In this document: one piece after another, positions 1 to 64,000 of the stretch
How positions within the stretch are numbered: the stretch's first letter is position 1
Layout: every line of letters begins with the position of its first letter
NCBI GenBank assembly: GCA_963704645.1
Contig: OY969926.1
Span: forward strand, 448,001 to 512,000
DNA: 64,000 nt
From: an uncultured bacterium
GTDB lineage: Bacteria > Patescibacteriota > JACMRA01
Reading direction: 5' to 3'
Translations under genes and position numbers: made by a program
The notes under the pieces: model-generated
Seen by the model: only the letters and a program-made list of their open reading frames with translations
What the model was told of the DNA's origin: nothing
The model's database searches: none

Positions 1-123
1 TTCTCTATTAAGGCTGTTGAACTAATTTTAGACAACTTGGTAACTTCTTACAACGAAGGTGTTCAAGCTGGAATTAGCCAAGCTATTGCTGAAGAAAAGA
101 AGGAAGTTGCTGTTAAAAATTAA
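1..123 (+). CDS. rpsB: 30S ribosomal protein S2, C-terminal end (partial)
   Basis: Frame 1 reads FSIKAVELILDNLVTSYNEG...KN-TAA, resembling the S2 terminal helix; it lies directly upstream of r-protein genes. Confidence 0.65.
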   Translation, partial: FSIKAVELILDNLVTSYNEGVQAGISQAIAEEKKEVAVKN

Positions 124-131
124 ATATTATT

Positions 132-335
132 ATGGCTCAGAAGCAAAAAAATAAAATTTTACTAATTAACACCGAAGTAGATCCAAAAACTGGAAGAAAA
201 GTTACACATAGATATGTTGTAAATAAATCTTTAGGTAAGGGTAAGCCAAATGGTGGAAAAGGTAAATTAGAATTAAAAAAATACAATCCAATTCTTAGGA
301 AGCACGTTTTGTATACAGAAACCAAATATAAATAA
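132..335 (+). CDS. rpmG: 50S ribosomal protein L33
   Basis: KLELKKYNPILRKHVLYTE motif. Confidence 0.93.
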   Translation: MAQKQKNKILLINTEVDPKTGRKVTHRYVVNKSLGKGKPNGGKGKLELKKYNPILRKHVLYTETKYK

Positions 336-336
336 T

Positions 337-549
337 ATGGCTTTAAAAAAAATGCGTAGTAAAACTAAGAAAAGTGTTTCCAAAAGACTTAAAGTTACCA
401 ATGGTGGCGATTTGCTAAAAGGAAAGCTTATTTTAAACAAAGCTGGTGATAATCACTACAATACCAGAAAATCAAGAAGTAGAACTATCAAAGCTAAACG
501 CGATGTTATTGCTGATAAAATTCATAATAAATTAAAAGCTGTTATATAA
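337..549 (+). CDS. rpmI: 50S ribosomal protein L35
   Basis: KMRSKTKKSVSKRLKVT; directly upstream of rplT. Confidence 0.9.
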   Translation: MALKKMRSKTKKSVSKRLKVTNGGDLLKGKLILNKAGDNHYNTRKSRSRTIKAKRDVIADKIHNKLKAVI

Positions 550-550
550 T

Positions 551-904
551 ATGTCTAGAGTTAAAAAAGGCGTTGCCGCACACAAGCACAGAAAATATTT
601 GTTAGACCGAGCTAAAGGTTTTATAAATGGTGCAAATTCCAAATTTAGATTAGCTAAAGAAAGATTATTGAAAGCTGAATCTAATGCTTACAAATCACGT
701 AAACTAAGAAAGAGAGATTTTAGAAGTTTATGGATTGTAAGAATTAATGGAGCTTTAGATCAAATTGGTAGCGATGTAAATTACAGCACATTTATTCACA
801 AATTATCTAATTCTGACATAAAGTTAAACAGAAAAGCTATTTCAGAAATTGCTATTAAAGATATTAATGCTTTCAAAGAAATTGTTGATAAAGTTTTAGT
901 ATAG
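551..904 (+). CDS. rplT: 50S ribosomal protein L20
   Basis: MSRVKKG...RKRDFRSLWIVRIN...LNRK. Confidence 0.98.
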   Translation: MSRVKKGVAAHKHRKYLLDRAKGFINGANSKFRLAKERLLKAESNAYKSRKLRKRDFRSLWIVRINGALDQIGSDVNYSTFIHKLSNSDIKLNRKAISEIAIKDINAFKEIVDKVLV

Positions 905-915
905 TTGTTTGGTAC

Positions 916-1758
916 ATGAAGTTCATTCTTCCTAAAACAAAACAAGAAATTTTGGCCCTTATTGGGCCTGTTTCTGTGTCTGAACAATTTGAATATTTAA
1001 AGTTCCATGCTGTTCGCTATAAGTATCTATTAGAAGTTGTAGCAAAGTATTTTCCTGTAGAGAGATCAGTTAATAAACAAAATACTCCAGAATTATTAGA
1101 TAAAAAAACTTTTGATGGGCCTGCCAACAACTCAGAAAACTTGAAAGACAAATTAGGTTCTGCTAATAACTTTAACTATAATAATCCGCTAAAAATTTTG
1201 GATATAGGAACTGGCTTTGAAGTAGACTTACTTCGCCATGTTTTTAAAGTGCCTATTCACACGGCTGGTTTTTATCATGCCGGTTGGCCAGTTTTGGAAG
1301 GTGAAAAGTTTTACGAATTAGATTTAAATAATACTGAGTTATTAGATAATGTTGTTAATCAAAAATATCCAATTATAATTATGGCGGAGGTAATTGAGCA
1401 TGTTCACACTGCCCCAGAATTAGTTTTAGCTGAGGTTAAAAAATGGCTTGAACCAAACGGTGTTTTAATAATTCAAACTCCAAATGCTGTGTCTCTTCCA
1501 AAAAGACTGAAAATGTTACTGGGAATTCAACCGTTCGAAAAAATTAGGCCTAATAAATTAAATCCTGGGCATTTTAGAGAGTATACCTTGACGGAATTAC
1601 ATAATATCTTAGCAGAGGTTGGATTAGAGGTTTTATACAGCTCTAGAAAAAACTATTTTTCTCCGAATAACACACTTCTTCAATTTCTATATTCTTTAGA
1701 ATTTCTATGGCCGCCAAGTTTAAGAACTGGTATTACGGTGGTGGTTAAGGGAAAATAG
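916..1758 (+). CDS. Class I SAM-dependent methyltransferase
   Basis: ILDIGTG, EVIEHV, LEPNGVLIIQTPN and HFREYT motifs. Confidence 0.88.
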   Translation: MKFILPKTKQEILALIGPVSVSEQFEYLKFHAVRYKYLLEVVAKYFPVERSVNKQNTPELLDKKTFDGPANNSENLKDKLGSANNFNYNNPLKILDIGTGFEVDLLRHVFKVPIHTAGFYHAGWPVLEGEKFYELDLNNTELLDNVVNQKYPIIIMAEVIEHVHTAPELVLAEVKKWLEPNGVLIIQTPNAVSLPKRLKMLLGIQPFEKIRPNKLNPGHFREYTLTELHNILAEVGLEVLYSSRKNYFSPNNTLLQFLYSLEFLWPPSLRTGITVVVKGK

Positions 1759-1812
1759 TTTTGTTATACTCTCGACCTAAAGTATTACTAAAAACTGATA
1801 ATATTACTTTTT

Positions 1813-2217: not shown

Positions 2218-2220
2218 AAT

Positions 2221-3108: not shown

Positions 3109-3157
3109 ATATTTTTGGTTAAATTGTTGTTAAATTATTTTTCAATAAATTTTGGGA

Positions 3158-3272: not shown

Positions 3273-3396
3273 AAATGCTGTAAAAGGTATATTTTTGGTT
3301 TTGTCAACAATAGCAACCTCTGGCTTAAAAGTGGTTTTGATCTTATTTTTTGACTGTACTGTCTATATTTGGCTACTTTAAATTAACACCAAATAT

Positions 3397-4461: not shown

Positions 4462-4537
4462 GGATTCGTAGCTCAGTTGGTAGAGCAGAAGACTCTTAAT
4501 CTTTTGGTCGTGGGTTCGACTCCCACCGGATCCACCA
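4462..4537 (+). tRNA. tRNA-Lys(CTT)
   Basis: Cloverleaf; anticodon loop CTCTTAA; GTTCGAC; encoded CCA. Confidence 0.97.
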
Positions 4538-5836: not shown

Positions 5837-5847
5837 TTATTTTAAAT

Positions 5848-7405: not shown

Positions 7406-7533
7406 TTAGTGGAAATTTTTCTATGCGCCTCTGTTTTTACGGAGGCTTTTATTTATTTCTAAAGAATTTATTTATTTTAAACTTGAACACAAAAAACTTG
7501 ACAATCATCAACCAAAATAGCAATTTTAAGTAT

Positions 7534-9606
7534 ATGTCAGATAACTACGGAGCAGATCAGATTACGGTTTTAGAAGGTTTAGAGGCGGTTAGAAAAAGAC
7601 CAGGAATGTATATTGGAAATACAGGAAAAGACGGGCTTCACCGCTGTATAGATGAAATTGTAGCAAACTCTGTAGATGAATACATGGCCAACCATGGTTC
7701 TAAAATTAAGCTGGTAATTACTAAAGATCAGGGTATTTACGTAGCCGATGACGGGCGTGGAATTCCAACTGATATTCACAGTAAAACTGGTAAAAGTGCT
7801 TTGGAAACAATTTTAACCGTGCTTCACGCTGGTGGTAAATTTGATCAAAAGAATTACCGTTTTTCTGGGGGTTTGCATGGTGTAGGTGCTTCTGTTGTAA
7901 ACGCATTGTCTTCAATTATGAGAGTTTGGGTTTTGAGAAATGAAATGGTGCACTTTATGGAATTTAGCAAAGGTAAAACAGTTATAGATATTACCTTAAT
8001 GAGTCAGAAAGAGTTTGAGGAAAAATACCCAGAAGTTGCTGTTCACCAAGTTTGGGATAAAACAGGAACAATAACTTTCTTTCAACCTGATAAAACAATT
8101 TTTGAAACAACAATTTTTGATATTAAAGAAATTTCCACTAATTTTAGACAAACTGCTTATTTGAATAAGGGGTTACATTTAACCCTAGAAGACCAAACTG
8201 TTGAACCATATACTGTAGAAGTTTTTGATTTCCCTAATGGAATTTATACCTACTTAGAACATTTAACAGAGGGTGAAGCTTTAAATACTCCAATTATTAT
8301 GTTAGAAGGTGAGCTAGATAATTTCCAGTTTGAAGCTGCATTAGCTTATGGTCCAGACTACTCAGAAAAAATGTTTGCTTTTACTAATGGTATTATTAAC
8401 CCAGAGCATGGAGCCCACGTTACAGGTTTTAAAACTGCCTTAACCAAGCTTGTTAACAGTCATGCTATAAATAAGAATGTCTTTAAAAAAGATGAAAGAT
8501 TTTCTAGCGACGATTTAAAAGAAGGTATGCGCGTTGTAATTTCTATTAAAATGGCAGACCCGCAATTTACTTCTCAAAGCAAGGTGAAACTTGGTTCAAC
8601 CATTGCTAGAACTTTAGTAGATAAAATTTTCAGCGACCGTTTTGGAACATATTTAGAAGAAAACCCAAATATTGCCATGGCCATTATTCAAAAGGCAAGT
8701 TTGGCAATGAGAGCAAGGTTGGCGGCCAAGGCAGCAAGGGAAAACGTTTTAAGAAAAGGTGTTTTAGAAAGTACTTCTTTGCCAGGTAAGTTAGCAGATT
8801 GTTCCGATAAAGATCCTTCCAAATGTGAAATATTTATTGTAGAAGGAGACTCGGCTGGAGGTTCGGCTAAACAAGGAAGAGATAGACATACCCAGGCAAT
8901 TTTACCGCTTCGTGGAAAAGTTTTGAACACAGAAAAAGCTACTTTAGATAAAATTTTGAATTACGAAGGTATTAAGAACATGATTATTGCTTTTGGTTGT
9001 GGCATTGGTGAAAAATTTGATATTACCAAAATTAGATATCACAAAATAGTATTAATGGCCGATGCGGACGTTGACGGTGCTCACATTGCTACATTGCTTT
9101 TAACTTTCCTTTACCGCTACATGCCAGCCTTAATAGAGGAAGGTTACATTTACATGGCTAGACCACCACTTTACCGTGTAAGTTGGGGTAAGCAGTTAGA
9201 ATACGTTTATTCTGATATAGAAAAAGACGCTGTTGTTTCCAGAATATTAGCCGCAGGGGGAAAGCTTCCTAAGGCTGATGAAGTTGTTGATGATGAAAAC
9301 GTTTCTGAAAACAATGAAACCGATTTAGCTTCTGGTTTAGATATTACCACAGATGCAGCGCCAGTGAAAGCTAAAAAAGCACCTAAAATTGAAATCCAGC
9401 GTTATAAAGGGTTGGGTGAAATGAGCGCAACACAATTATGGGATACAACTATGGATCCTGAAAAGCGTATGTTATGGCAAGTAACAGTGGGTGAAGCAGC
9501 TATAGCTAACCAAGTTTTTGAAGATTTAATGGGAAGTGACGTTGAGCCAAGACGTAAATTTATTCAAGAAAACGCCGTCTTCGTAGAAATTGACGACATC
9601 GGGTAG
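7534..9606 (+). CDS. gyrB: DNA gyrase subunit B
   Basis: EAVRKRPGMYIG, DDGRGIP, GGLHGVG, EGDSAGG, PLRGK, DADVDG and RYKGLGEM; start ATG 7534. Confidence 0.95.
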   Translation: MSDNYGADQITVLEGLEAVRKRPGMYIGNTGKDGLHRCIDEIVANSVDEYMANHGSKIKLVITKDQGIYVADDGRGIPTDIHSKTGKSALETILTVLHAGGKFDQKNYRFSGGLHGVGASVVNALSSIMRVWVLRNEMVHFMEFSKGKTVIDITLMSQKEFEEKYPEVAVHQVWDKTGTITFFQPDKTIFETTIFDIKEISTNFRQTAYLNKGLHLTLEDQTVEPYTVEVFDFPNGIYTYLEHLTEGEALNTPIIMLEGELDNFQFEAALAYGPDYSEKMFAFTNGIINPEHGAHVTGFKTALTKLVNSHAINKNVFKKDERFSSDDLKEGMRVVISIKMADPQFTSQSKVKLGSTIARTLVDKIFSDRFGTYLEENPNIAMAIIQKASLAMRARLAAKAARENVLRKGVLESTSLPGKLADCSDKDPSKCEIFIVEGDSAGGSAKQGRDRHTQAILPLRGKVLNTEKATLDKILNYEGIKNMIIAFGCGIGEKFDITKIRYHKIVLMADADVDGAHIATLLLTFLYRYMPALIEEGYIYMARPPLYRVSWGKQLEYVYSDIEKDAVVSRILAAGGKLPKADEVVDDENVSENNETDLASGLDITTDAAPVKAKKAPKIEIQRYKGLGEMSATQLWDTTMDPEKRMLWQVTVGEAAIANQVFEDLMGSDVEPRRKFIQENAVFVEIDDIG

Positions 9607-23757: not shown

Positions 23758-26700
23758 ATGTCGTACGTAGCTATTCCTAGTAACCTTAAAAATGTAGATT
23801 CAATTAGTCTCGAATTAATGAGCCCTGAAGAGATGTTGAACATGAGTTATGGAGAAGTTTTAACAGCTGAAACCATTAACTACAGAACTGGAATTCCTCA
23901 AACTAACGGTCTTTTTTGTCAGGCTATTTTTGGTCCTGTGCAAGATTGGGAGTGTCAGTGTGGAAAATATAAAAGGTACAGATACGCAGGTGTAATTTGT
24001 GATAAATGTGGTGTAATGGTTACTCACGCTTCTGTTAGGCGTGAAAGAATGGGGCATATTACTTTAGCTGTTCCATGCGTTCACCCTTGGATGTTAAGAA
24101 TTATTCCTTCTAGAATTGCTTTAATTTTAGACATGAAAGCTGCAGAAATTTCCAGAGTTGCTTATTTTTCTGCTTACGTTATTACCGAAATTCATGAAGA
24201 AATTAGATCTGAATACATTTCTAAACTAGAAGCCGAAGGACAATTAAGAATTAAGAATACCAAAGCAGATTTTGACCTTAAATTTGAAGCCCTTTCCAAG
24301 CAATATCAAATTGATAAATCTTCTGGTAATTTTGAAGTTGAAGCCTTAAAAGCCAAATATGAAGTAGATAAAGAAATTTTGAAAACTCAACAAGCTGAAA
24401 CAATTTCTAGAATTGAAACTATTGCTGAAGTAGCAAAAAAGGAAATTATGCTTTTGGAATACAAGAGCGTTATTACTGAAGTTGTTTACCAAGAATTATC
24501 CCAAAAGTTTGGTCCTGTATTTAAAGCAAGCATTGGTGCTGAAGCCATTGAACAACTTCTTAAAAATATTAATTTAGAAAAAGAAATTGATTTCTTAAAA
24601 GACAAATTAACAACTGCCCGCGGTGCTACTAAGCAGAAATTGGCTAAAAGAATGAAGCTAATTAAAGCCTTCCAAAGAAACAATACACGTCCAGATTGGA
24701 TGGTTCTTAGAAGGGTAATGGTTCTTCCTCCAGAATTGCGTCCTATGTTGCAATTAGACGGTGGTAGAATGGCAGCTTCAGATTTAAACGAATTGTACAG
24801 AAGATTAATTAACAGAAACAACCGTTTAAGAAAATTAATTCAAATTGGAGCTCCTGAAATTATTCTTCGTAACGAAAAAAGAATGTTACAAGAAGCTGTA
24901 GAAGCATTAATAGATAACTCTGCTAGAGGTGGAAGACAGGTTATGGCCAGCACTGGTGTAAAGCGTGCTTTAAAATCTTTAACCGATGTTTTGAAGGGTA
25001 AAGGCGGACGTTTCAGACAGAACTTGTTAGGAAAAAGAGTAGATTATTCTGGTAGATCTGTAATTATTGTTGGTCCATCTTTGAAGTTGAATCAGTGTGG
25101 CTTACCGAAGGAAATGGCTTTGGAATTGTTTAAGCCGTTCATGATTGGTAAAATTATCCAAAAATCTGAACTTGGTTTAATGGCTGACGAAGGATCTGCT
25201 TACAACGTTCACTCTGCTAGAAGGTTAATTGAAACTAGAAAGCCTGTTGTTTACGATATTTTAGATGAAGTAATTAAAGACAAATATGTTTTGTTGAACC
25301 GTGCTCCAACTTTGCACCGTTTAGGTTTCTTGGCTTTCCAGCCAGTTTTAGTAGAAGGCAAAGCTATTCGTTTGCATCCTTTGGTATGTCCTGCTTTTAA
25401 TGCAGATTTTGATGGAGATCAAATGGCTGTTCACTTGCCTATTACTATTAAAGGACAAGAAGAAGCTCGTGATTTAATGGTGGCAACTAAGAACTTACTT
25501 CGCCCTGCCAACGGTGAAATTATCATGCAAGGTCACCAAGATATTTTGCTTGGTATTTACTACTTAACAAGTTTGGGTGAACCAACAGAAAAGATTAAGC
25601 GTTTTAGCTCCACATCTTTAGTTCTACGTGCTTTAGCTGATAAAGAAATTGAAACCTCCGAGTTAGTACGTGTAAAACTTCCTAAAGAAAAAGGTGGTGA
25701 AACTGTAGAAACCACAGCTGGAAGAATTTTGTTCAACCGATGTTTCCCAGATGCTTTTAAGTATGTAAATCAAGAGCTAAACAAGAAAAACTATGGTGCA
25801 TTAATTACCGAAAGTTACCATTTCTTAGGTCAAGATGCTATGGCCAAAGTTTTGGATACAATTAAAGACACGGCTTTTAAATATGTAACCTCCGCTGGTA
25901 TTACTTTGTCCTACAAAGATTTTACAAGTCCTGATGGAAAGCATGAATTATTAGCTGAAACTAGAGGCAAAGTTAAACAGTTGGGTCAATACTTTGACCT
26001 TGGTTTAATGACAGACAAGGAAAGACACAGACAAGTTATTAGTCAATGGAGAGTAACTTCTGATGATATTTCTAAGTTAACTGAGCAGGCAATGGATAAG
26101 CGTGGAAACGTTGGTATGATTATCAATTCTGGAGCTAGAGGAAACGTAACAGCCTTGAACCAAATTGTAGGTATGAAAGGTTTGCTTATGACTGCTTCTG
26201 GGGAAATTGTGGAACTTCCTATTCAAAGTAGTTATCTTGAAGGTTTAACTGGTTTGGAATACTTTATTTCCATGAGAGGACAAAGAAAAGCTTTAGCTGA
26301 TATTGCTTTGAAAACTGCTGATGCTGGTTACTTGACTAGAAAAATGGTAGATGTATCTCAAAACTTAGTTGCCATGTCCGATGACTGCAATACAAAGTTG
26401 GGTGTACGTATCACAGTAGATTCTAGTAAGGCTATGAACAAATCTATTTGGGATATTGTTTATGGAAGATTCCTATTGAAAGATTTGAAAGATTCTGCCG
26501 GAAATGTTTTGGTTAAAGCTGGAGAATTCCTAGATTACGCTACAGTTAACTCTTTGAGAGATAAAGATGTGCAAGAAGTTTGGGCAAGATCTAGTGTGAA
26601 ATGCCAATTGCCAAGAGGTGTTTGTAGAAAGTGTTATGGTGTAGATTTTAGCACTCATCAACCAGTTAAATTGGGTTCTGCTATTGGTATTATTGCTGCT

Positions 26701-27726
26701 CAAAGTTTAGGAGAGCCAAGTACTCAATTGTCTTTGCGTTCCAAGCACTTTGGAGGTGTAGCTATGAAAGCAGACATTAACTCTGGTTTGGCTAGAGTGG
26801 AGGAAGTTCTAGAGGCAAGAGTTCCTAAATATGTTGCTCCAATGGCAATTTTAGATGGAGTTGTAGAAAAAGTAGAGGGAAGTATTGATGAAGGCTTCAA
26901 AATTACAGTAGTAAGTCATCCAAGCGCCCATAAGTTAGAAAAAGATACAACCGATATGATGCTTCTAGGAAACGGAAGTTCAGTTAGTGCTACAGACGAT
27001 TTGTTTGTTCACGCAACTGGTGAAGTAATGAAGGCAGGTCATAACGGAACCGTTGAAACAGATGGTAATATTATTGTTATTAAACAAGAAGCTCCTGAAG
27101 TTTCCGAATATCAAACTGTTCCAGGTTTAGTGTCTTTGGTAAGAGTGGGTGATAAGGTTTTCAGAGGTCAAGCTTTGGCAGACGGTCCTCTGAATTTGCA
27201 GGAAATTATGGAATCAATTGGAGTTGATGCTGTGTACCAGTATATTGTTACACAACTAAACGAAATTTATTCTTCAAATGGTATTACAGTTAACATTAAA
27301 CATATTGATGTAATTGTACGCCAAATGTGTAACCGTGTATCTGTAATTGATGCGGGTGAAAGTGAATTATCTTTGGGTGATTTGGTTAGCCAATCTTTGG
27401 TGCAAAGCGTAAACCTTAAATTAGCTGCCGAAGGTAAGAAAATTGTAATTTTCAAGAGAATTGTAATTGGTATATCCAGAGCATCTTTGGCTACAGAAAG
27501 TTGGTTGTCTGCTGCGTCCTTCCAAGAAACAGCCAAAGTTTTGGTTGAAGCAGTTATTAGTGGAAGAAAAGATCAGCTTTTAGGTTTGAAAGAAAACGTA
27601 ATTTTGGGTCAATTAATTCCTGCTGGAACTGGTTTTGATGGTGTAAAAGCAATTACTACAGAAATTCAAGAAGAGTTCGAAGAAGAAATATCTCCAGATT
27701 TGGAAGAAAGTATCGTTGAGGTCTAA
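23758..27726 (+). CDS. rpoC: RNA polymerase beta-prime subunit
   Basis: NADFDGDQMAVH, zinc finger CQCGKYK...CDKC, and SAASFQET. Confidence 0.99.
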   Translation: MSYVAIPSNLKNVDSISLELMSPEEMLNMSYGEVLTAETINYRTGIPQTNGLFCQAIFGPVQDWECQCGKYKRYRYAGVICDKCGVMVTHASVRRERMGHITLAVPCVHPWMLRIIPSRIALILDMKAAEISRVAYFSAYVITEIHEEIRSEYISKLEAEGQLRIKNTKADFDLKFEALSKQYQIDKSSGNFEVEALKAKYEVDKEILKTQQAETISRIETIAEVAKKEIMLLEYKSVITEVVYQELSQKFGPVFKASIGAEAIEQLLKNINLEKEIDFLKDKLTTARGATKQKLAKRMKLIKAFQRNNTRPDWMVLRRVMVLPPELRPMLQLDGGRMAASDLNELYRRLINRNNRLRKLIQIGAPEIILRNEKRMLQEAVEALIDNSARGGRQVMASTGVKRALKSLTDVLKGKGGRFRQNLLGKRVDYSGRSVIIVGPSLKLNQCGLPKEMALELFKPFMIGKIIQKSELGLMADEGSAYNVHSARRLIETRKPVVYDILDEVIKDKYVLLNRAPTLHRLGFLAFQPVLVEGKAIRLHPLVCPAFNADFDGDQMAVHLPITIKGQEEARDLMVATKNLLRPANGEIIMQGHQDILLGIYYLTSLGEPTEKIKRFSSTSLVLRALADKEIETSELVRVKLPKEKGGETVETTAGRILFNRCFPDAFKYVNQELNKKNYGALITESYHFLGQDAMAKVLDTIKDTAFKYVTSAGITLSYKDFTSPDGKHELLAETRGKVKQLGQYFDLGLMTDKERHRQVISQWRVTSDDISKLTEQAMDKRGNVGMIINSGARGNVTALNQIVGMKGLLMTASGEIVELPIQSSYLEGLTGLEYFISMRGQRKALADIALKTADAGYLTRKMVDVSQNLVAMSDDCNTKLGVRITVDSSKAMNKSIWDIVYGRFLLKDLKDSAGNVLVKAGEFLDYATVNSLRDKDVQEVWARSSVKCQLPRGVCRKCYGVDFSTHQPVKLGSAIGIIAAQSLGEPSTQLSLRSKHFGGVAMKADINSGLARVEEVLEARVPKYVAPMAILDGVVEKVEGSIDEGFKITVVSHPSAHKLEKDTTDMMLLGNGSSVSATDDLFVHATGEVMKAGHNGTVETDGNIIVIKQEAPEVSEYQTVPGLVSLVRVGDKVFRGQALADGPLNLQEIMESIGVDAVYQYIVTQLNEIYSSNGITVNIKHIDVIVRQMCNRVSVIDAGESELSLGDLVSQSLVQSVNLKLAAEGKKIVIFKRIVIGISRASLATESWLSAASFQETAKVLVEAVISGRKDQLLGLKENVILGQLIPAGTGFDGVKAITTEIQEEFEEEISPDLEESIVEV

Positions 27727-32649: not shown

Positions 32650-32736
32650 TACCCCCAAGCCTTTGGCTTGACCCCTTCGGGCAAACATGTCGGTTGAAAC
32701 AAGTTCAACCTGCGCCAGTTTACTTACCAGGGGTAC
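32650..32736 (+). repeat. Structured element of about 85 nt
   Basis: Hairpins CAAGC/GCTTG and GGTTGAA/TTCAACC; identical at 39179-39265 and diverged at 36308-36387. Confidence 0.75.
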
Positions 32737-32917
32737 TTTCAGCCAAGTTTACTCTAATTGTGTTATACTTCTAACCAAACACAGCTCCCTTTATTGGGGG
32801 TTTTGGTTTGTCTTTTTTATACAAATCTTTTGTCTTAACTTTTGAAACAAAGAAATTAATGGTGAAATTAAGCAAATTATCTTTGACAACCAAACCAACT
32901 GAGCTAAAAGTTTAGTA

Positions 32918-36387: not shown

Positions 36388-36537
36388 ATGCTCAATCATA
36401 TCTCCTACAATTTAGTTAGACTTTTACCTTATTTAATATGGTTTTTGGTTTATTTATACTTCCCATAAATCAATATCCAATCCCCTTTGCCTAAACCTAA
36501 AAAACAAAATACAATAGAACAAAACCAAAACAAAAAT

Positions 36538-39897: not shown

Positions 39898-39972
39898 GGC
39901 GCTATCGTCTAATGGTTAGGACACAGGATTCTCATTCCTGTAACCGGGGTTCAATTCCCCGTAGCGCTACCA
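39898..39972 (+). tRNA. tRNA-Glu(CTC)
   Basis: Cloverleaf; anticodon loop TTCTCAT; encoded CCA. Confidence 0.96.
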
Positions 39973-40072: not shown

Positions 40073-41992
40073 ATGATTGTTTTAACTAATGAAATTAGTA
40101 AAGCCGAATTCCTTAAACAATTATCTAACGAAGTTGGTTACCCAGGAGTTCTAAATATTCAAGCTGATGTTTTACCTAGCTTCCTAGACAACCAAGTTGC
40201 CCTAACAATTTTTTCTTACCAACTTAGTAATTATCCTCGTGAAATTGTTTGGTCATCCAGTAATCCTATAATTTTACAGCTTTTAAGAGATTCTCAGTTA
40301 AATATTTCTGAAAATTATTTAAAGCCACATTTTCCCAGTGAAGAAATTAGTGAAGTTGTACCTACAAATTCCAACTTGGAATTACCTTCAGACGCAGATT
40401 ATGAGGTAATTGAAAACTGGTCTGATATGGCTATTGATACTAGCTATTTAGCCAAAACCGGATTTTTTCAGAATAATGCTTTGGAAGTAATTCCAAATTT
40501 GAATTTAGAATCTAATTTTTCTTCTAAAATTCCTACTACTTTGGTAAAACCACAGTCTGAACAACACTATGTGAACGGCATGGATAAGGAACTTTCATTT
40601 TCCCCTAGCTCTGGTAATACTTTGAATACAATAAGTTTAGCTGGTTTACTGACTCAAGAAAAATATCAGCCAAGCAGTGTTATTAAATTAAGCCAAGAAG
40701 ATATACTTGAAGAAGAATTACAAGGTGAAAAGGTAAGTTTGCCAGAAGCAGGTAGTTTAGATAGTTGGTTAGAAAAAATTGAAGCTACACGTGAAGCGTT
40801 GAACAGTTTAAGAAAAGAGAAGGAGGCTGTAAACGAAAATTTATTTAATAATCTGCCAAACTTTGCCAGACCTAGAACAAGAAGCAAATGGTTTTACACA
40901 ATTACTGCAAGCTCAATTATATCTTTGTTAATTGTTAGTTTTTTAATTTTCTTCCCAACCCAAGCCTATACTTTGGAAGTTTATCCAGACTATCAAGATG
41001 GGACATTTATTTTGGAATCTAGCAAATCTGACCTTAGCAAAAAAGATATTCTTTTAGAAAGCAAGCAAACAATACCAACTCAAAATAAAGAAAAAACAGA
41101 AACCGAAAGAGCTGTTGGAACAATTAAATTAATTAACGAAGGGGGTAAAGATGTGGTTTTAGACAACGCTAAATTCCAATTAGTAAAAGACGGTTTTAGA
41201 TATTCACCAATTTACAACAGTACTCTACCAACCACTTTTTCTATTACTGCTCAGAACAATAAAACAGACAATGCTCCACAGTTCACTATTCAATCAATTC
41301 CCCAAATTGGAGTAGCTGGTAGTACTTTTAATCAAGCTGTGGGCACTAGGCTAAAAATTATAAATTTGCAGGATCAAAGCCCTTGCAGCAGTTGTTATGC
41401 CGTAGTAACAGCTGATATAACCAATAAAAATGGTGAAGGAAACAAAATTGTAACAGAAGCAGATTACGATAGTTTGAAAAATGTGGTGGAACAAGAGCTG
41501 CAAAAAAGTAGGAATGAGAAAATTCAATCTATACGTGCAGATAAAGTATTTATTGGTAAAAATTGGTACAAAGATGTGCAGAACAGCTATGTATTTAGTG
41601 CTAAAGTAGGGGAAAAAGCCGAAAATATTTCACTTGCAGCTTCTATAAATTCTGAAGTTTATTACACATTAAGAAGTGCAGTTGAAGACAAAATTCGCCA
41701 AGAAAATCCTGAAATTGATAAAATTAAAGATATGGCTTTATTGGGAAGTGAGGGTAGCTTAGATAGTCAAGGGGGAATTAAGTCCAACTTTTATTATACA
41801 TTTAGTAAGAAAGTTAAAGTTGATAGTTCTGAAGTTTCTAATATGCTGGCAGCTAAAGAATTCGATCAAGCAAGAAGTGATATCACTAAAGAATACCCTT
41901 CTGTTAAAAGAATTGAAAAGCAAGATCTTGGCATTAAGCTTCCTGGGCTTACACCTAGAACTGACATTAAAATTATAGAGAAAGATAGTTAA
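40073..41992 (+). CDS. Single-TM protein with a large external domain, possibly baseplate-J-like
   Basis: Central TM, then AVGTIKLIN...VTEADYD pattern. Confidence 0.55.
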   Translation: MIVLTNEISKAEFLKQLSNEVGYPGVLNIQADVLPSFLDNQVALTIFSYQLSNYPREIVWSSSNPIILQLLRDSQLNISENYLKPHFPSEEISEVVPTNSNLELPSDADYEVIENWSDMAIDTSYLAKTGFFQNNALEVIPNLNLESNFSSKIPTTLVKPQSEQHYVNGMDKELSFSPSSGNTLNTISLAGLLTQEKYQPSSVIKLSQEDILEEELQGEKVSLPEAGSLDSWLEKIEATREALNSLRKEKEAVNENLFNNLPNFARPRTRSKWFYTITASSIISLLIVSFLIFFPTQAYTLEVYPDYQDGTFILESSKSDLSKKDILLESKQTIPTQNKEKTETERAVGTIKLINEGGKDVVLDNAKFQLVKDGFRYSPIYNSTLPTTFSITAQNNKTDNAPQFTIQSIPQIGVAGSTFNQAVGTRLKIINLQDQSPCSSCYAVVTADITNKNGEGNKIVTEADYDSLKNVVEQELQKSRNEKIQSIRADKVFIGKNWYKDVQNSYVFSAKVGEKAENISLAASINSEVYYTLRSAVEDKIRQENPEIDKIKDMALLGSEGSLDSQGGIKSNFYYTFSKKVKVDSSEVSNMLAAKEFDQARSDITKEYPSVKRIEKQDLGIKLPGLTPRTDIKIIEKDS

Positions 41993-49420: not shown

Positions 49421-49511
49421 GGAAAAGTGCCAGAGTGGTTGAACGGGACGTTCTCGAAAAACGTTGTACCTTTAAAAAGTACCGAGGGTTCGAATCCCTC
49501 CTTTTCCGCCA
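49421..49511 (+). tRNA. tRNA-Ser(CGA)
   Basis: Long variable arm; anticodon loop CTCGAAA; encoded CCA. Confidence 0.96.
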
Positions 49512-52491: not shown

Positions 52492-52566
52492 TGGTGGGTG
52501 ATAGAGGATTCGAACCTCTGACCTTTGCCGTGTAAAGGCACTGCGCTACCGCTGCGCCAATCACCC
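52492..52566 (-). tRNA. tRNA-Val(TAC)
   Basis: Cloverleaf; anticodon loop TTTACAC; encoded CCA. Confidence 0.96.
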
Positions 52567-54172: not shown

Positions 54173-54199
54173 TTTATATCATTCGTTTAAGAATAAAGA

Positions 54200-54228: not shown

Positions 54229-54490
54229 GAAATAAATATTCTTTAAGGTTAATAATTAAATGCCAAGTGTAAAATAACAATTTCCTGTTTAAATTGTTTA
54301 ATTAATCTGAGCTGTAGAAATTTTTGTAGCTTTTTTATTGCATATGTTTAATTAACGGCTCTTGATAATAATTTATGTAATAAAGTTTATTCTCTAAATA
54401 ACAGTGTTATACCCTTCACTTTTTAATTTATACTTATAAAATGTCTTTCTAGTTTAATTTTTTTTGCAACATTTTTTATTTTTGGAAAAC

Positions 54491-54515
54491 AAAAATCTCC
54501 CCTTTAGGGAGAGAT
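54491..54515 (-). terminator. Terminator after the 5S rRNA
   Basis: ATCTC(T)CCC-loop-GGGAGAT hairpin plus U-run. Confidence 0.7.
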
Positions 54516-54520
54516 CAATG

Positions 54521-54639
54521 ACACCGGTTTTGGCCTATTTTCCCCAGTCTCTGCAGACTAGTATCATCAGCGTAAATGCGTTTCAAGACTCTGTTCGGAA
54601 TGTGAAGAGTTGGTGCCACACCACTTGAAAAACCGATGT
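54521..54639 (-). rRNA. rrf: 5S rRNA, stand-alone
   Basis: 119 nt; terminal helix ACATCGGTTTT/AAAACCGGTGT; CATTCCGAAC loop C; GATGATACT...GGGAAAATAGG loop E. Confidence 0.9.
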
Positions 54640-55754: not shown

Positions 55755-57530
55755 TTATCCACCAACATAGAAATTTAAGTTATATGAGTCTCTTAACAAA
55801 GTGTTACCTGAAGTTGCAGTTGCAATTACATTGTAGTAATTGACGGTTTGATCTACTGCTGCAAGAGTAGTTTCGCACGCACCATTTGTGATATTTGATG
55901 TATATGTTCTTAGAATATTTGCTGGAATGTATGGTCTAGGGAATCTAATAAATTCAAAAGTGCAGGTTCCAGTTGTAAGAGTTACTCCGTTTGAATCTTT
56001 CAATTCGTCATATACAATTTTCATTGTTCCATCTTTAAATTTCTGTGTTGTATTACAGTTGGTGTTTTCTCTAGTCACTAAGTCGAAGTTTACAGTTGTG
56101 TTGCTTAAACCTACACAGTAAAGTCTTCCAGATCTTACAGCAACAATTGCTGGGGCTAAAGTAATATTTCCACTATCAACTGGTGTTCCAGCGTCGTTGT
56201 ATTGTAATAAAACATTTCTATCTCCAGCAGTTCCTCCAGTTGTTGGAATTGGACAGACAAGTGATGCAGCAGCAGTTCCATTTCCAGTAATTGTACAGTC
56301 AGTACCGTAACCGCCAGAAACAGGAGTCAAATCTGTAGCTGCATTTCCGTTTTGACTTGTAGTTCCATTAATACCATTGGTAGGTGCGGCATAGTTATTA
56401 GCAGCGTCTCCTGTTAAAGGAAATACACAAGATGAAGAAGTTCCAATTGGGGTTGGGTTTGGAGTGCATACACCAGTTCCAACATTTGCAGGGGCTATTA
56501 CTGTTGGAGGGATGGTCGCGGCTTGCAAAGTTACATTTCCTTTATCTGCAGGACTTCCTGTTCCACCATATTGTAGTAAAACATTTCTATCTCCAGGTGT
56601 TCCTCCAGTTGTTGGAATAGTTGTACAACTTAATGCTGCAGATGCAGTTCCATTGCCAGTAATAGTACAAGCAGGGCTATAACCACCAGAAACAGGGGTT
56701 AAATCTGTGGCTGCATTTCCATTTTGACTTGTTGAACCTGCAATTCCACCAGAAGGTAGAACATAGTTATTTTGTGCGTTTCCTGTAAGTGGGAAAGTGC
56801 AGTTATAAGTTGTGTTAACAGTGGTAGATGATGGAGTACATGTTCCATTGCTTGTGTTAGCAGCAGCAATAGTTGTTGGGGAAGATGCAACTACACTAAT
56901 ATTTAAGGAAGCAGCTCCTCCGCTTGCACCATCCAAAGTTGTTTCAGCTATAATTGCAAAGTTAACTGTATTGCCGGCAACTAGACCTTGATCAGATCTA
57001 AGTGTTGCTCTGAAAGTAATGACACCAGTTTTAGCAGCTGGCCATGTGCCTGGGTCTGAAGGTGAGGCTTCAGGTGCTGAAGTTAAGGTTGCAGGGCCTG
57101 CAGTTGACTGACCATTACATGGTGCAGTTAAAGTGGTTGCAGATCTTGGTCTGTATGAAAGTGAAGTAGATCCGTCACCAGCTACCGTAACAATGCCTGA
57201 AGCGTCACTTACACAATACATAGGAGAGGTTGTTCCTCCAAATTGTTCTGTTAAAGAATTAGCTACGTAGGTTAATTTATTATTCAAAAATATTGTTGTT
57301 ACAGCGTTAGCTATAGAGTCACTATCTCCTGCGTTAATATACTGTATTGTAAATACACCAGTTTGCCCAGGTGATAAAGATACAACTGAAGCTGCCTGTG
57401 CAGTTTGATTATTTCTGTTTATTAAAGAATAACTTACTCCTAATATTGATATTAATAATATAGCTAAAGCAGCTATACTAATTTTGCCCATTCTAGATTT
57501 AAAAAAACTATTAATATTTTTTAGTGTCAT
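55755..57530 (-). CDS. Cys/Thr-rich surface protein
   Basis: N-terminal TM; first domain paralogous to the 47252 gene; two 124-aa repeats (372-bp period). Confidence 0.85.
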   Translation of the reverse strand: MTLKNINSFFKSRMGKISIAALAILLISILGVSYSLINRNNQTAQAASVVSLSPGQTGVFTIQYINAGDSDSIANAVTTIFLNNKLTYVANSLTEQFGGTTSPMYCVSDASGIVTVAGDGSTSLSYRPRSATTLTAPCNGQSTAGPATLTSAPEASPSDPGTWPAAKTGVITFRATLRSDQGLVAGNTVNFAIIAETTLDGASGGAASLNISVVASSPTTIAAANTSNGTCTPSSTTVNTTYNCTFPLTGNAQNNYVLPSGGIAGSTSQNGNAATDLTPVSGGYSPACTITGNGTASAALSCTTIPTTGGTPGDRNVLLQYGGTGSPADKGNVTLQAATIPPTVIAPANVGTGVCTPNPTPIGTSSSCVFPLTGDAANNYAAPTNGINGTTSQNGNAATDLTPVSGGYGTDCTITGNGTAAASLVCPIPTTGGTAGDRNVLLQYNDAGTPVDSGNITLAPAIVAVRSGRLYCVGLSNTTVNFDLVTRENTNCNTTQKFKDGTMKIVYDELKDSNGVTLTTGTCTFEFIRFPRPYIPANILRTYTSNITNGACETTLAAVDQTVNYYNVIATATSGNTLLRDSYNLNFYVGG

Positions 57531-61702: not shown

Positions 61703-61832
61703 TGGGAATTTATATAGATCAATATAAATCAATCATTTTCTAACTTTAATTATAGTTAGTTGGGTAAACTTAATTTATTTATTGACAATTTTATATTTTA
61801 TAAGCAATTAATGAGTAATTATTAATAGCCAA

Positions 61833-62468
61833 ATGTCTAATAACCCAAACAACAACGAAATATTTATGCCAGAAAACAAATCTAACAAAGCCAGTATTAT
61901 TGTTGCTATTGTAGCAATCTGCTTAATTTTAGGAGGTGTTTATTTAATTAACCAAGGTGTAAATTCTTCAAATAAGACTAAAGAAACTGCTCAGAACACA
62001 AACTCAAATAGTTCTAGTAGCAGTACTCCAACAACTTCTACTTCCACCAAGGCCACAACTAGCACAACAGAGCCAACTGAAACTACTACTCCAACAACTA
62101 ATACTGCTGCCACCACAACACCAACCACTGTAGATACAACAACTCCAGCTACTACAACTACTCCATCAACCAGTAGTACAACTACTCCTACTACAACTCC
62201 TACTACAACCACACCAGAGCCAGCTAAATTGGAAAATAATCAAATAGTAGCTAAAGCTTTATCAGTTTCGGATAGTGGAGAAACTAGATTTGAAATTAAA
62301 GAATGTGGAATACCTAACGCTACGGTTTGCAAGGCTGGAACTAAATTTACATTAACAGGCGTTAAATCTTCTGTAGATAAAACATATTTGGTTTCAGGTA
62401 ACATTACCGAAAGTAATGGAGCTTTAAGTTTGGAAAACATAATTGTAAAAGAATACACCGCAAGTTAA
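61833..62468 (+). CDS. TM-anchored protein with Thr/Pro-rich stalk
   Basis: N-terminal TM, PTTT repeats and a small Cys-pair domain. Confidence 0.75.
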   Translation: MSNNPNNNEIFMPENKSNKASIIVAIVAICLILGGVYLINQGVNSSNKTKETAQNTNSNSSSSSTPTTSTSTKATTSTTEPTETTTPTTNTAATTTPTTVDTTTPATTTTPSTSSTTTPTTTPTTTTPEPAKLENNQIVAKALSVSDSGETRFEIKECGIPNATVCKAGTKFTLTGVKSSVDKTYLVSGNITESNGALSLENIIVKEYTAS

Positions 62469-62473
62469 TTTTC

Positions 62474-62496
62474 AGCTCCGTAAGGGGCTTTTTTTA
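62474..62496 (+). terminator. Intrinsic terminator
   Basis: AGCTCC-GTAA-GGGGCT plus T-run. Confidence 0.75.
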
Positions 62497-62666
62497 TGCA
62501 TTAAATTATTCCTAAAGCTGTAGTTTCACTAAATTGAAGAAGCTTAAACGTTTTTAGATTTCAAAACAAAATGTTTATAAAGTAGTACTTTTATCTTTAT
62601 CACTGAAGTTCTTGTAATAGTTTCAATTCAAAAAGTTTAATCAAAATTGTAATTAATTTATTCAAA

Positions 62667-63503
62667 ATGATCTCTCACATTTATCCAAAAAATATTGGTA
62701 AGTATTTAAACAAGGAAGAGTTTTTTTATTCAAATCAAGTAAATAAAATTAAACTGCCAAAACATACAATCATTAGAGTTTATGGGTTATCGGGGGTAGG
62801 TAAGGGAAGGCTTTCCCAAAATTTATCTCATTCCTTAAATATTCCAAATATTGATACAGGCAAAGTTTTTAGGTCTGTTTGCTACGCTTATTTAAATTTA
62901 AATTTCAAGGAAGTAACACCTGAGAATACCGCAGAAGTTTTCAAAACTTTAAGATTCCAATTAAGCAATAATCAGTTACAGGTTTTCTTTAAGAAAAAAG
63001 AGCTTTCACAGTTGAATTTAAAAAGTGCTGAAATTGATTCAGTAATAACCATTTATTCTAAAAACATTAATTTAAGGCAGCAAACATACGATGTTATTTT
63101 AAATTTCATAACTAAAATTGATACAGCCTGTTTAACCGATGCACGGGGAGCAAGTGAAGATTATATTGATAAAGCCGAAGCTATGGGCTATAAAATAATT
63201 AGAATTTTAGTAGATGTAGACTTTGAAACAAAACTAGCCAGATACTATGAGCAAATTAAGGAGTCAGATGAGGGTAAAATTGGCCGTACTCTGCGCGCCC
63301 CAGAACGGGAGAAACTTTATAAGCATTTGTGGCAGGTTATGAAGCAGCGTGACGAAAAAGATTTAGCCATCTCCGCAAGTGGTCAGTGGAGCTTAATTAG
63401 CTCAGATTCAGCCATTATTGACACTGGAAAATATAACATTCAAGAAAGTTTCCAAATAGTTTTAGGTTATATTTATAGTTTGGTAGAGGGGGTAAATAGT
63501 TAA
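62667..63503 (+). CDS. cmk: Cytidylate kinase-like protein
   Basis: GLSGVGKG, IDTGKVFR, RDEKD and IIDT. Confidence 0.8.
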   Translation: MISHIYPKNIGKYLNKEEFFYSNQVNKIKLPKHTIIRVYGLSGVGKGRLSQNLSHSLNIPNIDTGKVFRSVCYAYLNLNFKEVTPENTAEVFKTLRFQLSNNQLQVFFKKKELSQLNLKSAEIDSVITIYSKNINLRQQTYDVILNFITKIDTACLTDARGASEDYIDKAEAMGYKIIRILVDVDFETKLARYYEQIKESDEGKIGRTLRAPEREKLYKHLWQVMKQRDEKDLAISASGQWSLISSDSAIIDTGKYNIQESFQIVLGYIYSLVEGVNS

Positions 63504-63874
63504 ACAAAATTGAAATAGTTTTTATATAAGTCTTTCATTTTCTCGTCTAAAGTAATTACATTTTTAATATTATTTTCTATGGCGCAAGCCAGTTGCAAGG
63601 CATCCTCAAAATCTTCGTCTTTGCAAATTTGTTTGGCAATTTCATAGGTTGTACTACCTTGGTTTAAAACTTTAAATCTAGATAAAATAAAGTTTAGCTC
63701 CCAGTCTTCCAACTTAATTTTTTTACCGAAGTAATAAACTATATGAACAGTTAGAAATGAAATGTATACCTGCTCATACTCATTTAGTTTTGGTAGCAAA
63801 ATTGGAACTTGCTGTCTTTTAAAAAGAAGCTCTAAAACCACGTTTGTATCAAGAAATAAAGTCTTCAATTTCAT
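63500..63874 (-). CDS. PIN-domain (VapC-like) toxin
   Basis: FLDTNV, DFEDALQ and ITLD. Confidence 0.9.
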   Translation of the reverse strand: MKLKTLFLDTNVVLELLFKRQQVPILLPKLNEYEQVYISFLTVHIVYYFGKKIKLEDWELNFILSRFKVLNQGSTTYEIAKQICKDEDFEDALQLACAIENNIKNVITLDEKMKDLYKNYFNFV

Positions 63875-64000
63875 AATATTTATCCATTAACTCTTTATAA
63901 TTTTTAACTTCCTGATATTTTTTTGGAATTCTATCTGCCGATATTATATTGAAAGCCTCGGAAATAGGGGGTTGCTGTTTTGTCTGATCTACTTTAGTTG
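63849..64000 (-). CDS. Probable antitoxin, C-terminal part (partial)
   Basis: Only open frame upstream of the PIN gene: ...KELMDKYYEIEDFIS-TGA, overlapping the toxin start. Confidence 0.5.
   Translation of the reverse strand, partial: TKVDQTKQQPPISEAFNIISADRIPKKYQEVKNYKELMDKYYEIEDFIS

What the first reader, a model, noticed from the sequence alone, without database searches (positions are those of the whole stretch)
1..64000. TGA appears unused: no TGA stop in 60 genes and no TGA sense codon
Seen: I read the stop codon of 60 credible CDSs and counted 35 TAA, 25 TAG and 0 TGA, including both IS transposases. These ORFs are full length under code 11, so TGA is not a common sense codon either. 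Known: RF2 is the only bacterial factor that reads UGA, and Gracilibacteria/Absconditabacteria recode UGA as Gly. Inference: this lineage may have lost or weakened RF2, leaving UGA nearly unassigned, the intermediate state predicted by codon capture. If TGA were 10% of stops, 0 of 60 has a probability of about 0.002. One possible exception is the partial antitoxin ending in TGA at 63851-63849, which has an in-frame TAA ten codons later.
Basis: partly seen in the sequence, partly recalled or inferred. Interest (0 to 1): 0.82.

Follow-up and report, generated by a model that had tools for sequence, protein, structure and literature searches.

The report
TGA: a rare but working stop
This small bacterial genome and its relatives almost never end genes with TGA, yet they keep an intact factor that reads TGA and still use it as a stop, so this is an extreme stop-codon preference and not a change in the genetic code.

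Summary
In the window, 0 of 54 non-overlapping ORFs of at least 100 aa end in TGA (30 TAA, 24 TAG). The window is typical of its 1.27 Mb, 33% GC genome: TGA ends 36 of 1030-1031 ORFs of at least 100 aa (3.5%) and 8 of 409 of at least 300 aa, so P(0 of 54) is 0.15. TGA makes up 20-24% of stop trinucleotides in intergenic and off-frame sequence, so the depletion is specific to stop sites.

The interpretation mostly fails. prfB is an intact single ORF with SPF and GGQ and no change at 64 near-invariant positions. It is intact in all 19 class members examined. No tRNA has a UCA anticodon and tRNA-Trp is ordinary. I found no credible in-frame TGA. TGA sits where orthologs have TAA.

The skew is class-wide (15 of 367 ORFs, TAG 33%) against 59 of 512 in 14 other low-GC genomes of the phylum, some equally low. 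RF2 diverges faster than RF1 between the two congeners (61% vs 84% identity), a hint of relaxed constraint.

Verdict: standard code with RF1-biased stop usage, a "primed" state already described elsewhere.

The parts
1..64000 (.). Whole window: 54 non-overlapping ORFs of at least 100 aa, 30 ending in TAA, 24 in TAG and none in TGA
   Evidence: Window = G000:C1:448001-512000.
63849..64000 (-). 3' part of an 87-aa ORF (runs on to 64112, beyond the window) that ends in TGA at 63849-63851. It is the only well-scoring TGA-ending ORF touching the window. 'Antitoxin' is inferred from its position upstream of a PIN gene.
   Evidence: frame-advantage score 0.94, next in-frame stop after 9 codons; no Pfam family.
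63500..63874 (-). PIN-domain toxin-like gene, 124 aa, ends in TAA. Its start overlaps the TGA-ending ORF by 26 nt.
   Evidence: PF01850, E = 1.1e-13, profile positions 2-119 of 120..
32687..32845 (+). 52-aa ORF ending in TGA, probably not a gene
   Evidence: frame-advantage score 0.02.
54464..54628 (+). 54-aa ORF ending in TGA, of doubtful coding status
   Evidence: frame-advantage score 0.30.
23758..27726 (+). rpoC, 1322 aa, ends in TAA. A core gene that is full length under code 11 with no in-frame TGA.
   Evidence: TIGR02386, 1200.4 bits, no stops inside..
7423..9606 (+). gyrB, 727 aa, ends in TAG. A core gene that is full length under code 11.
   Evidence: four GyrB Pfam domains, the C-terminal domain matched to residue 715.
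4462..4537 (+). tRNA-Lys(CUU), one of four tRNAs in the window (the others are Glu CUC at 39898-39972, Ser CGA at 49421-49511 and Val UAC at 52492-52566). None reads UGA.
   Evidence: Genome-wide there are 41 tRNAs and none has a UCA anticodon.

Best explanation
The organism uses the standard bacterial code. UGA is still a stop codon, read by an intact RF2, but selection acting at the stop position has purged it from almost all genes in this whole class. About 96-98% of genes end in codons that RF1 can read (TAA 59%, TAG 38%).

Shown here: prfA and prfB are both intact with their decoding and catalytic motifs. There is no UGA-decoding tRNA. No credible in-frame UGA was found. TGA occupies the same position as TAA in orthologs. 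The depletion is specific to stop sites and is strongest in genes with the best codon usage. It is shared by the class.

Inferred, not shown: UGA is the least reliable stop signal (established for E. coli; recalled). In this lineage RF2 supply or activity is probably low relative to RF1. prfB has no internal UGA frameshift sensor to tune RF2 levels. Genes ending in UGA would then terminate slowly or leakily and drift to TAA or TAG. The TGA ends that remain sit disproportionately in short, poorly adapted, accessory or broken ORFs.

The state matches what others have called 'primed' for reassignment, but nothing here shows that reassignment is under way.
For: Release factors. The prfB-like ORF scores 361.9 bits against TIGR00020, is a 367-aa open frame with no stop, and has SPF and GGQ. 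The prfA-like ORF scores 374.5 bits and has PAT and GGQ. RF2 was extracted as a single ORF of 358-385 aa in 19 of 19 class members; 18 of 19 have SPF, 1 has SPY, and 19 of 19 have GGQ. G000's RF2 differs at 0 of 64 near-invariant positions.

tRNAs. There are 41 tRNAs, none with a UCA anticodon. The single tRNA-Trp(CCA) has an anticodon stem of at least 5 bp and a canonical loop.

TGA is not a sense codon.. The two long same-frame stretches after a TGA are separate neighbouring genes.

TGA behaves as a stop. TatD's Pfam match runs to residue 306 of 307. Its TGA aligns with TAA in the G001 and G019 orthologs. In 8 of 228 ortholog pairs the relative has TGA within 0-21 codons of G000's TAA or TAG (7 of the 8 within 3 codons). 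The DegT-like gene's TGA lies 20 nt before a tRNA-Ser gene, which a readthrough product would have to cross.

Selection, not composition. TGA is 19.5% of stop trinucleotides in intergenic DNA and 23.5% in off-frames, but 3.5% at stops (p = 7e-53). TAG is 38% at stops against an expected 22-28%. G144, from the same phylum and at 30.8% GC, ends 55 of 224 ORFs in TGA. G007, in this class at 40% GC, ends 0 of 48 in TGA.

Gradient. The TGA share by codon-usage quartile is 7.8, 3.5, 1.6 and 1.2%. TGA-ending ORFs have lower codon scores (p = 4e-7) and are shorter.

Class-wide. 15 of 367 ORFs of at least 200 aa in 8 other class genomes end in TGA, against 59 of 512 in 14 other low-GC genomes of the phylum.

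No frameshift in prfB. Class prfB hits carry no internal stop, except G005 with 1 TAA.
Against: The causal step, low RF2 supply making UGA termination poor, has no direct evidence. No expression data were available.

A backup-stop signal that would indicate leakiness is weak. 13 of 36 TGA genes against 219 of 994 others have a TAA or TAG within 3 codons (one-sided p = 0.04). It is not significant at the other thresholds tested (0 and 8 codons) or by rank test (p = 0.35).

Ho and Hurst (PMC8789281; abstract and passages read) argue that release-factor ratios follow stop usage rather than drive it.

Low TGA is not unique to this class. Among ORFs of at least 200 aa, G042 has 0 of 35, G215 1 of 35, G216 1 of 25, G040 3 of 59 and G039 3 of 50. 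The class is the low end of a continuum.

My gene set is a home-made ORF filter, not a trained gene caller. At least one TGA 'stop' (rpoD) is created by a 1-nt indel, so the counts carry error.

Most TGA ends have a TAA or TAG within a few codons. For those genes the sequence alone cannot tell termination from readthrough.
Confidence: 0.72

Rival explanations
1. One reading: RF2 is functionally weakened or on its way to loss, so UGA is effectively unassigned. This would be the codon-capture or unassigned-codon intermediate.
For: TGA ends only 1.2% of ORFs in the best codon-usage quartile. Between the congeners G000 and G001, RF1 is 84.4% identical (above the 90th percentile of 70 orthologs) but RF2 is 61.4% identical (below the median of 66.5%). 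Three control genera give 74.0/73.5, 88.5/84.6 and 71.7/79.1 (RF1/RF2). G000's RF2 scores just under the NCBIfam cut-off, 361.9 against 370 bits. prfB lacks the frameshift autoregulation, as in the prfB-retaining Mycoplasmatota for which decay has been suggested (PMC12421855, passages read).
Against: RF2 is intact in 19 of 19 class members. The SPF loop region is strongly conserved and G000 has 0 changes at 64 near-invariant positions. The C-terminal 231 residues are 76% identical between G000 and G001. At deeper divergences RF2 and RF1 track each other in the family, with ratios of 0.97-1.21 in 9 of 10 pairs. RF1 and RpoB also score low against their models, so the low HMM scores reflect a long-branch lineage and not RF2 specifically. 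TGA stands at orthologous stop positions.
Confidence: 0.13
2. Neutral mutation bias: AT pressure converts TGA to TAA, and the skew carries no selective meaning.
For: The genome is 33% GC. TGA use falls with GC across bacteria (PMC8789281 and PMC12421855, passages read). Several other low-GC genomes of the phylum also have little TGA.
Against: TGA is not depleted in intergenic or off-frame sequence. TAG has the same base content as TGA but is enriched to 38%. G144 at 30.8% GC uses 25% TGA, while G007 at 40% GC uses 0 of 48. The gradient with codon adaptation is not expected under pure mutation bias.
Confidence: 0.08
3. UGA is reassigned or dual-use (table 4 or 25, selenocysteine, or tRNA-Trp near-cognate decoding).
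For: Recoded lineages exist in what is probably the same phylum (PMC13695967 and PMC13092985, passages and sections read). Most TGA ends are followed closely by TAA or TAG.
Against: RF2 is present. There is no tRNA with a UCA anticodon. The tRNA-Trp does not have a 4-bp anticodon stem. No credible in-frame TGA was found in coding sequence. rpoB and rpoC have no internal stops.
Confidence: 0.03
4. Artefact of ORF calling or of assembly errors.
For: My gene set is heuristic. One TGA end is created by a 1-nt indel in rpoD.
Against: Such errors create TGA ends and would not remove them. The skew appears at every length threshold and in 8 independent assemblies of the class.
Confidence: 0.02

Closest known systems
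prfB-retaining Mycoplasmatota (Acholeplasmataceae, phytoplasmas), as described in PMC12421855 (passages read)
   Same: Low GC, small genome, particularly low TGA stop use, and prfB retained without the programmed frameshift motif.
   Different: A different phylum. Those lineages sit beside relatives that recoded UGA to Trp. I found no recoded neighbour here: 0 of 8 RF2-poor genomes tested had an in-frame TGA in rpoB. TAG is unusually high here (38%). I have no figures for their TAG share.
Tapirivita (Eggerthellaceae), described as 'primed' for reassignment at about 9% UGA stops (PMC13462651, passages read)
   Same: Standard code, RF2 retained, low UGA stop use, interpreted as a pre-reassignment state.
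   Different: UGA use here is lower (about 2-4%). There is no nested position between recoded genera and no selenocysteine link. The trait spans a whole class of 27 species in the collection searched.
Flavobacterium johnsoniae, 7% RF2-specific stops, called 'unusually low' (PMC12421855, passage read)
   Same: A standard-code bacterium with RF2 and little TGA.
   Different: It keeps the prfB frameshift motif, which this class lacks. Its genome is large.
UGA-recoded Patescibacteriota: table 25 (JAEDAM01: Absconditabacterales and BD1-5) and table 4 (JAKLIH01, GCA-2747955) (PMC13695967, PMC13092985, PMC8629427)
   Same: Small, low-GC genomes, probably of the same phylum. Almost no TGA at gene ends.
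   Different: Those lineages lack prfB, mostly carry a tRNA(UCA) and have many in-frame UGAs. This genome has prfB, no tRNA(UCA) and no credible in-frame UGA.
RF2-bearing 'Gracilibacteria' for which Codetta inferred no meaning for UGA (PMC8629427, passage read)
   Same: RF2 present, no tRNA(UCA), and too few in-frame UGAs to infer a meaning, so they were read as standard code.
   Different: I could not establish whether this genome belongs to that group, because no lineage name was obtainable.

Membership tests
Standard bacterial code (NCBI table 11) | RF1 present with a PxT decoding motif and GGQ | tested here: met
   prfA-like ORF at genome 617874-618923 (-), 374.5 bits to TIGR00019, with PAT and GGQ.
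Standard bacterial code (NCBI table 11) | RF2 present with an SPF decoding motif and GGQ | tested here: met
   prfB-like ORF at genome 223682-224773 (+), 361.9 bits (cut-off 370), with SPF and GGQ. It differs at 0 of 64 near-invariant positions.
Standard bacterial code (NCBI table 11) | Genes are full length with TGA read as stop, and TGA is interchangeable with TAA or TAG at orthologous ends | tested here: met
   (full length). (TatD TGA against TAA in G001 and G019; TGA in relatives at 8 of 228 orthologous ends).
UGA reassignment (tables 4 and 25) | Loss of prfB | tested here: not met
   prfB is present and intact in 19 of 19 class members examined.
UGA reassignment (tables 4 and 25) | [quoted passage not shown] | tested here: not met
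   0 of 41 tRNAs have a UCA anticodon. The tRNA-Trp anticodon stem has at least 5 bp.
UGA reassignment (tables 4 and 25) | In-frame UGA within conserved coding sequence | tested here: not met
   No internal stops in rpoB or rpoC. Codetta itself was not run.
Unassigned-codon or codon-capture intermediate | The codon has vanished, or nearly so, from all coding use | tested here: inconclusive
   No credible sense use. As a stop, TGA ends 3.5% of ORFs of at least 100 aa, 2.0% of those of at least 300 aa, and 1.2% in the best codon-usage quartile. It is rare but has not vanished.
Unassigned-codon or codon-capture intermediate | The factor that reads the codon (RF2) is lost or non-functional | tested here: not met
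   By sequence RF2 is intact and conserved. Its activity cannot be tested with these tools.
'Primed' low-UGA lineages that retain RF2 (Acholeplasmataceae-like or Tapirivita-like) | Low GC, low TGA stop share, prfB retained | tested here: met
   33.4% GC, 2-3.5% TGA, prfB present.
'Primed' low-UGA lineages that retain RF2 (Acholeplasmataceae-like or Tapirivita-like) | prfB without the programmed +1 frameshift motif | tested here: met
   A single uninterrupted ORF in G000 and in 19 of 19 class sequences. Class prfB hits have no internal stop except G005 with 1 TAA.
'Primed' low-UGA lineages that retain RF2 (Acholeplasmataceae-like or Tapirivita-like) | Close relatives that have completed UGA reassignment | tested here: not met
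   All 27 species of the class have a release-factor hit, 24 at clear RF2 strength. 0 of 8 RF2-poor genomes of the phylum had an in-frame TGA in rpoB. This was a sample of 301 genomes, so the result is 'not found in those searched'.

The most novel reading that the evidence does not exclude
This class is an independent, natural pre-reassignment state in a lineage of small genomes. Demand for RF2-specific termination has fallen to about 1% among well-adapted genes. prfB has lost its UGA-sensing autoregulation. In the G000 branch RF2 has begun to evolve about 2.5 times faster than RF1. RF2 would then be close to dispensable, and some members, or undiscovered relatives, may already have lost it. 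That would make the class a living model for the first step of stop-codon capture.
Probability: 0.18. Interest if true: 0.6.

Novelty: new member of a known kind. Interest (0 to 1): 0.3.

Why it matters
Annotation. The genome should be annotated with table 11. The absence of TGA stops in a stretch of sequence must not be read as recoding.

Biology. The class adds a very TGA-poor (about 2-4%) and TAG-rich (33-38%) lineage that still carries RF2. Comparable cases I saw described in print are about 9% for Tapirivita and 7% for F. johnsoniae. Bacteria are said to hold TAG near 20% regardless of GC (PMC8789281, passage read).

Because the depletion is specific to stop sites and graded with codon adaptation, the class is a good test case for two open questions. 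One is whether release-factor supply drives stop-codon choice or follows it. The other is what the state just before RF2 loss looks like.

The result is useful but not surprising to specialists. Low-GC small genomes with little TGA, and the idea of 'primed' lineages, are already known.

Tried and rejected
Lineage name. The search for related loci with RF2 gave one unnamed MAG record. I therefore did not use the search for homologous proteins or the search of protein representatives. 'Patescibacteriota/CPR' is my inference from genome sizes of about 0.4-2.1 Mb in the 301 genomes sampled, not a result.

Recoded sister lineage. Eight genomes of the phylum with only RF1-strength hits were tested through rpoB, and none had an in-frame TGA.

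Backup stops after TGA. The trend is weak and depends on the threshold. I do not use it as evidence of leakiness.

Clustering of TGA-ending ORFs (islands of foreign DNA). My impression was wrong. Observed counts equal expected counts in all six permutation tests.

G144 as a 'TAG-less' genome. This was a small-sample artefact. With 420 kb sampled, TAG ends 16 of 224 ORFs.

rpoD frameshift in public reads. No RNA holder was listed. The three DNA runs hold small shares (0.06-0.11), and their contigs stop at 1489 and resume at 1505 of L156, so none bridges the site. The check is uninformative.

Synteny around prfB between G000 and G001. None of G000's neighbouring genes matched the 20 kb of the G001 contig I held on one side, so orthology rests on each genome having a single RF2.

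Other points.
- One search was a pointless placeholder fold of 10 bases.
- Literature searches for a prior description of this skew in the phylum found none. This covers only the held library.
They may already list comparable genomes.
- The phylum tally includes the unpublished genome G173. No other claim rests on it.

Full report
What the window is. The window is positions 448001-512000 of a single-contig genome of 1,272,640 bases at 33.4% GC. Its taxonomic class holds 27 species in the collection searched, in one order and two families, with genomes of about 0.8-1.6 Mb. The 301 genomes sampled from its phylum are all about 0.4-2.1 Mb. I read this as Patescibacteriota/CPR. That is an inference: no tool gave a name.

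The observation. I built a greedy non-overlapping ORF set filtered by a codon-usage frame test. In the window it contains 54 ORFs of at least 100 aa, of which 30 end in TAA, 24 in TAG and none in TGA. That ORF ends in TGA at 63849-63851 (-), with the next in-frame stop 9 codons on, and it overlaps the start of a PIN-domain gene. GyrB and RpoC are full length under table 11.

Genome-wide, the same set gives 604 TAA, 391 TAG and 36 TGA among 1031 ORFs of at least 100 aa, and 231/170/8 among 409 ORFs of at least 300 aa. Against that rate, 0 of 54 has P = 0.15. The window is ordinary for its genome. The genome is what is unusual.

TGA is not a sense codon. Treating TGA as a non-stop changes the number of ORFs of at least 300 aa from 411 to 420, and of at least 1000 aa from 36 to 36. 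I scanned for in-frame TGA flanked by coding signal on both sides. The scan found none at a strict threshold and two at a lax one. One of these lies antisense to a tRNA gene and the other is a 67-aa hydrophobic ORF with an unconvincing extension. Two places where a TGA is followed by hundreds of open codons are simply neighbouring genes in the same frame.

The machinery. prfB (genome 223682-224773) is one uninterrupted ORF with SPF and GGQ. prfA (617874-618923, minus strand) has PAT and GGQ. Both score a little under the NCBIfam cut-offs, and RpoB is also divergent, so this is a long-branch lineage and not a specifically decayed RF2. ARAGORN finds 41 tRNAs and none has a UCA anticodon. The single tRNA-Trp(CCA) has a normal anticodon stem, unlike the 4-bp-stem UGA readers described in PMC13092985 (abstract and sections 11 and 19 read).

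RF2 across the class. RF2 was recovered as a single ORF in 19 of 19 class members examined, at 42-61% identity to G000's RF2. GGQ is present in all 19, SPF in 18, and SPY in one. G000's RF2 differs at none of the 64 positions that are near-invariant across the other 22 aligned sequences. A gene kept intact over that much divergence is under purifying selection.

TGA behaves as a stop. TatD's Pfam match runs to residue 306 of 307. Its TGA aligns exactly with TAA in the G001 ortholog, and G019's TAA lies 2 codons further on. Across 228 ortholog pairs that reach the C-terminus, relatives have TGA where G000 has TAA or TAG in 8 cases, 7 of them within 3 codons.

What the TGA-ending ORFs are. Of the 20 longest, 13 have a Pfam hit. 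They include two aminotransferases, TatD, an HD_4 protein and a glycosyltransferase. They also include a serine recombinase overlapping a tRNA-Ala gene, a fragment of a Type ISP enzyme, a PIN toxin and an RNase H-like protein. One 'TGA stop' is not a stop at all. The rpoD-like sigma factor is split by a 1-nt insertion (CTT-A-GCC in G000 against CTA-GCT in G001), and the TGA is met out of frame.

Selection or composition. TGA accounts for 19.5% of stop trinucleotides in intergenic DNA and 23.5% in the two off-frames of genes, but 3.5% at stop sites. TAG is expected at 22-28% and observed at 38% (p values).

Within the genome, the TGA share falls from 7.8% in the lowest codon-usage quartile to 1.2% in the highest, while TAG stays at 34-41%. 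TGA-ending ORFs have lower codon scores (p = 4e-7) and are shorter.

GC alone does not explain the skew. G144, from the same phylum at 30.8% GC, ends 55 of 224 ORFs in TGA. G007, in this class at 40% GC, ends 0 of 48 in TGA.

How wide the trait is. Eight other genomes of the class give 231 TAA, 121 TAG and 15 TGA among 367 ORFs of at least 200 aa, so 4.1% TGA and 33% TAG. Fourteen genomes of other families with GC under 40% give 342/111/59 of 512, so 11.5% TGA and 22% TAG (Fisher p = 7e-5, but kin are not independent). Individual genomes of other families range from 0 of 35 to 5 of 17. The class is the low end of a continuum, not a category of its own.

Is RF2 weakening? Between the congeners G000 and G001, RF1 is 84.4% identical and RF2 61.4%. 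The median of 70 orthologs is 66.5% and the 90th percentile 83.3%. Same-genus pairs in three other families give RF1/RF2 identities of 74.0/73.5, 88.5/84.6 and 71.7/79.1. In the last of these, from a genome with 43% TGA, RF2 is the better conserved factor.

G000's RF2 is also 4-5 points further from other family members than G001's is, while its RF1 is not. The extra change lies outside the conserved core, and the C-terminal 231 residues are 76% identical. In the other 9 of 10 within-family pairs, RF2 and RF1 diverge about equally, with ratios of 0.97-1.21. This is a hint of relaxed constraint on one branch and no more.

Comparison with what is known.
- TGA share falls with GC, and TAG is described as about 20% regardless of GC (PMC8789281, abstract and passages).
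- PMC12421855 (abstract and passages)% TGA in F. johnsoniae unusually low. It also notes that prfB-retaining Mycoplasmatota combine low GC, low TGA and a prfB without the frameshift motif, and suggests RF2 may be decaying there. That is the closest match to what is seen here.
- PMC13462651 (passages) calls Tapirivita, with about 9% UGA stops, 'primed' for reassignment.
- Codetta's authors met RF2-bearing 'Gracilibacteria' with too few in-frame UGAs to infer a meaning and read them as standard code (PMC8629427, passage).
- Recoded Patescibacteriota lack prfB and mostly carry tRNA(UCA) (PMC13695967 and PMC13092985). This genome fails those tests.

Verdict. The reading 'RF2 lost or weakened, UGA nearly unassigned' is mostly not supported. 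This is the standard code with an extreme, class-wide, selection-shaped avoidance of TGA and a preference for RF1-readable stops. The cause I propose, poor UGA termination because RF2 supply is low, is inferred. The finding is a new and rather extreme member of a known kind.

Noticed in passing
Outside the window: G000:C1:1111590-1113300 (+), equal to L156:390-2100: The rpoD-like primary sigma factor is split by a single extra base near genome position 1112700. Regions 1.2 and 2 are in one frame, and regions 3 and 4 continue in the +1 frame. Four relatives encode it as one ORF of 739-749 aa. It could be an assembly error, a very recent mutation, or a +1 shift tolerated at a CTT-A-GCC site.
   Followed up: partly
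L182 (G028:C1:635325-636134) and L183 (G083:C1:98028-98834): In two closed genomes of family f5, the prfA match covers only model positions 67-351, in a 239-aa open frame with one TAA inside. RF1 there seems to lack domain 1 or to be split, yet TAG still ends about 23% of ORFs.
   Followed up: no
G144 (family f70), loci L130-L131, L190-L210: The assembly is rated 100% complete (30 contigs) but shows only one release factor. It is RF1-like, with a PKT motif in a 257-aa open frame, and no RF2-strength hit was found. Even so, 55 of 224 ORFs end in TGA. Either RF2 lies in an assembly gap or something odd reads UGA there.
   Followed up: partly
L051 (G009:C41), prfB: One class member has SPY instead of SPF in the RF2 decoding loop.
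   Followed up: no
L159 (G019:C9), prfB: In G019 the prfB gene itself ends in TGA, so RF2 would terminate its own synthesis.
   Followed up: no
Outside the window: G000:C1:1155868-1155945; also in G144: A tRNA-Ile with a UAU anticodon is present, which suggests AUA is read without lysidine modification. tilS was not checked.
   Followed up: no
Outside the window: G000:C1:73645-75231 (+) and tRNA-Ala at 75167-75242 (-): A 528-aa serine recombinase ORF ending in TGA overlaps a tRNA-Ala gene. This looks like the edge of an integrated element.
   Followed up: no
window:59003-61702 (+) and window:63500-64000 (-): An 899-aa protein resembling a type IV secretion coupling protein (TraG/TrwB-like) lies next to a PIN toxin pair. 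This may be part of a conjugative or integrative element in a very small genome.
   Followed up: no
window:28182-32417 (+), 36487-38946 (+), 40073-41992 (+), 55755-57530 (-): Four large ORFs (1411, 819, 639 and 591 aa) with good coding scores have no Pfam family at E of 0.001 or better.
   Followed up: no
prfB matches in other families of the phylum (table): Seven listed family f37 genomes and a few other genomes carry one TGA inside the prfB match, as expected for the classical frameshift site. Many other genomes show one TAA or TAG inside the match instead. I did not check whether those are real frameshift sites or alignment run-through.
   Followed up: no
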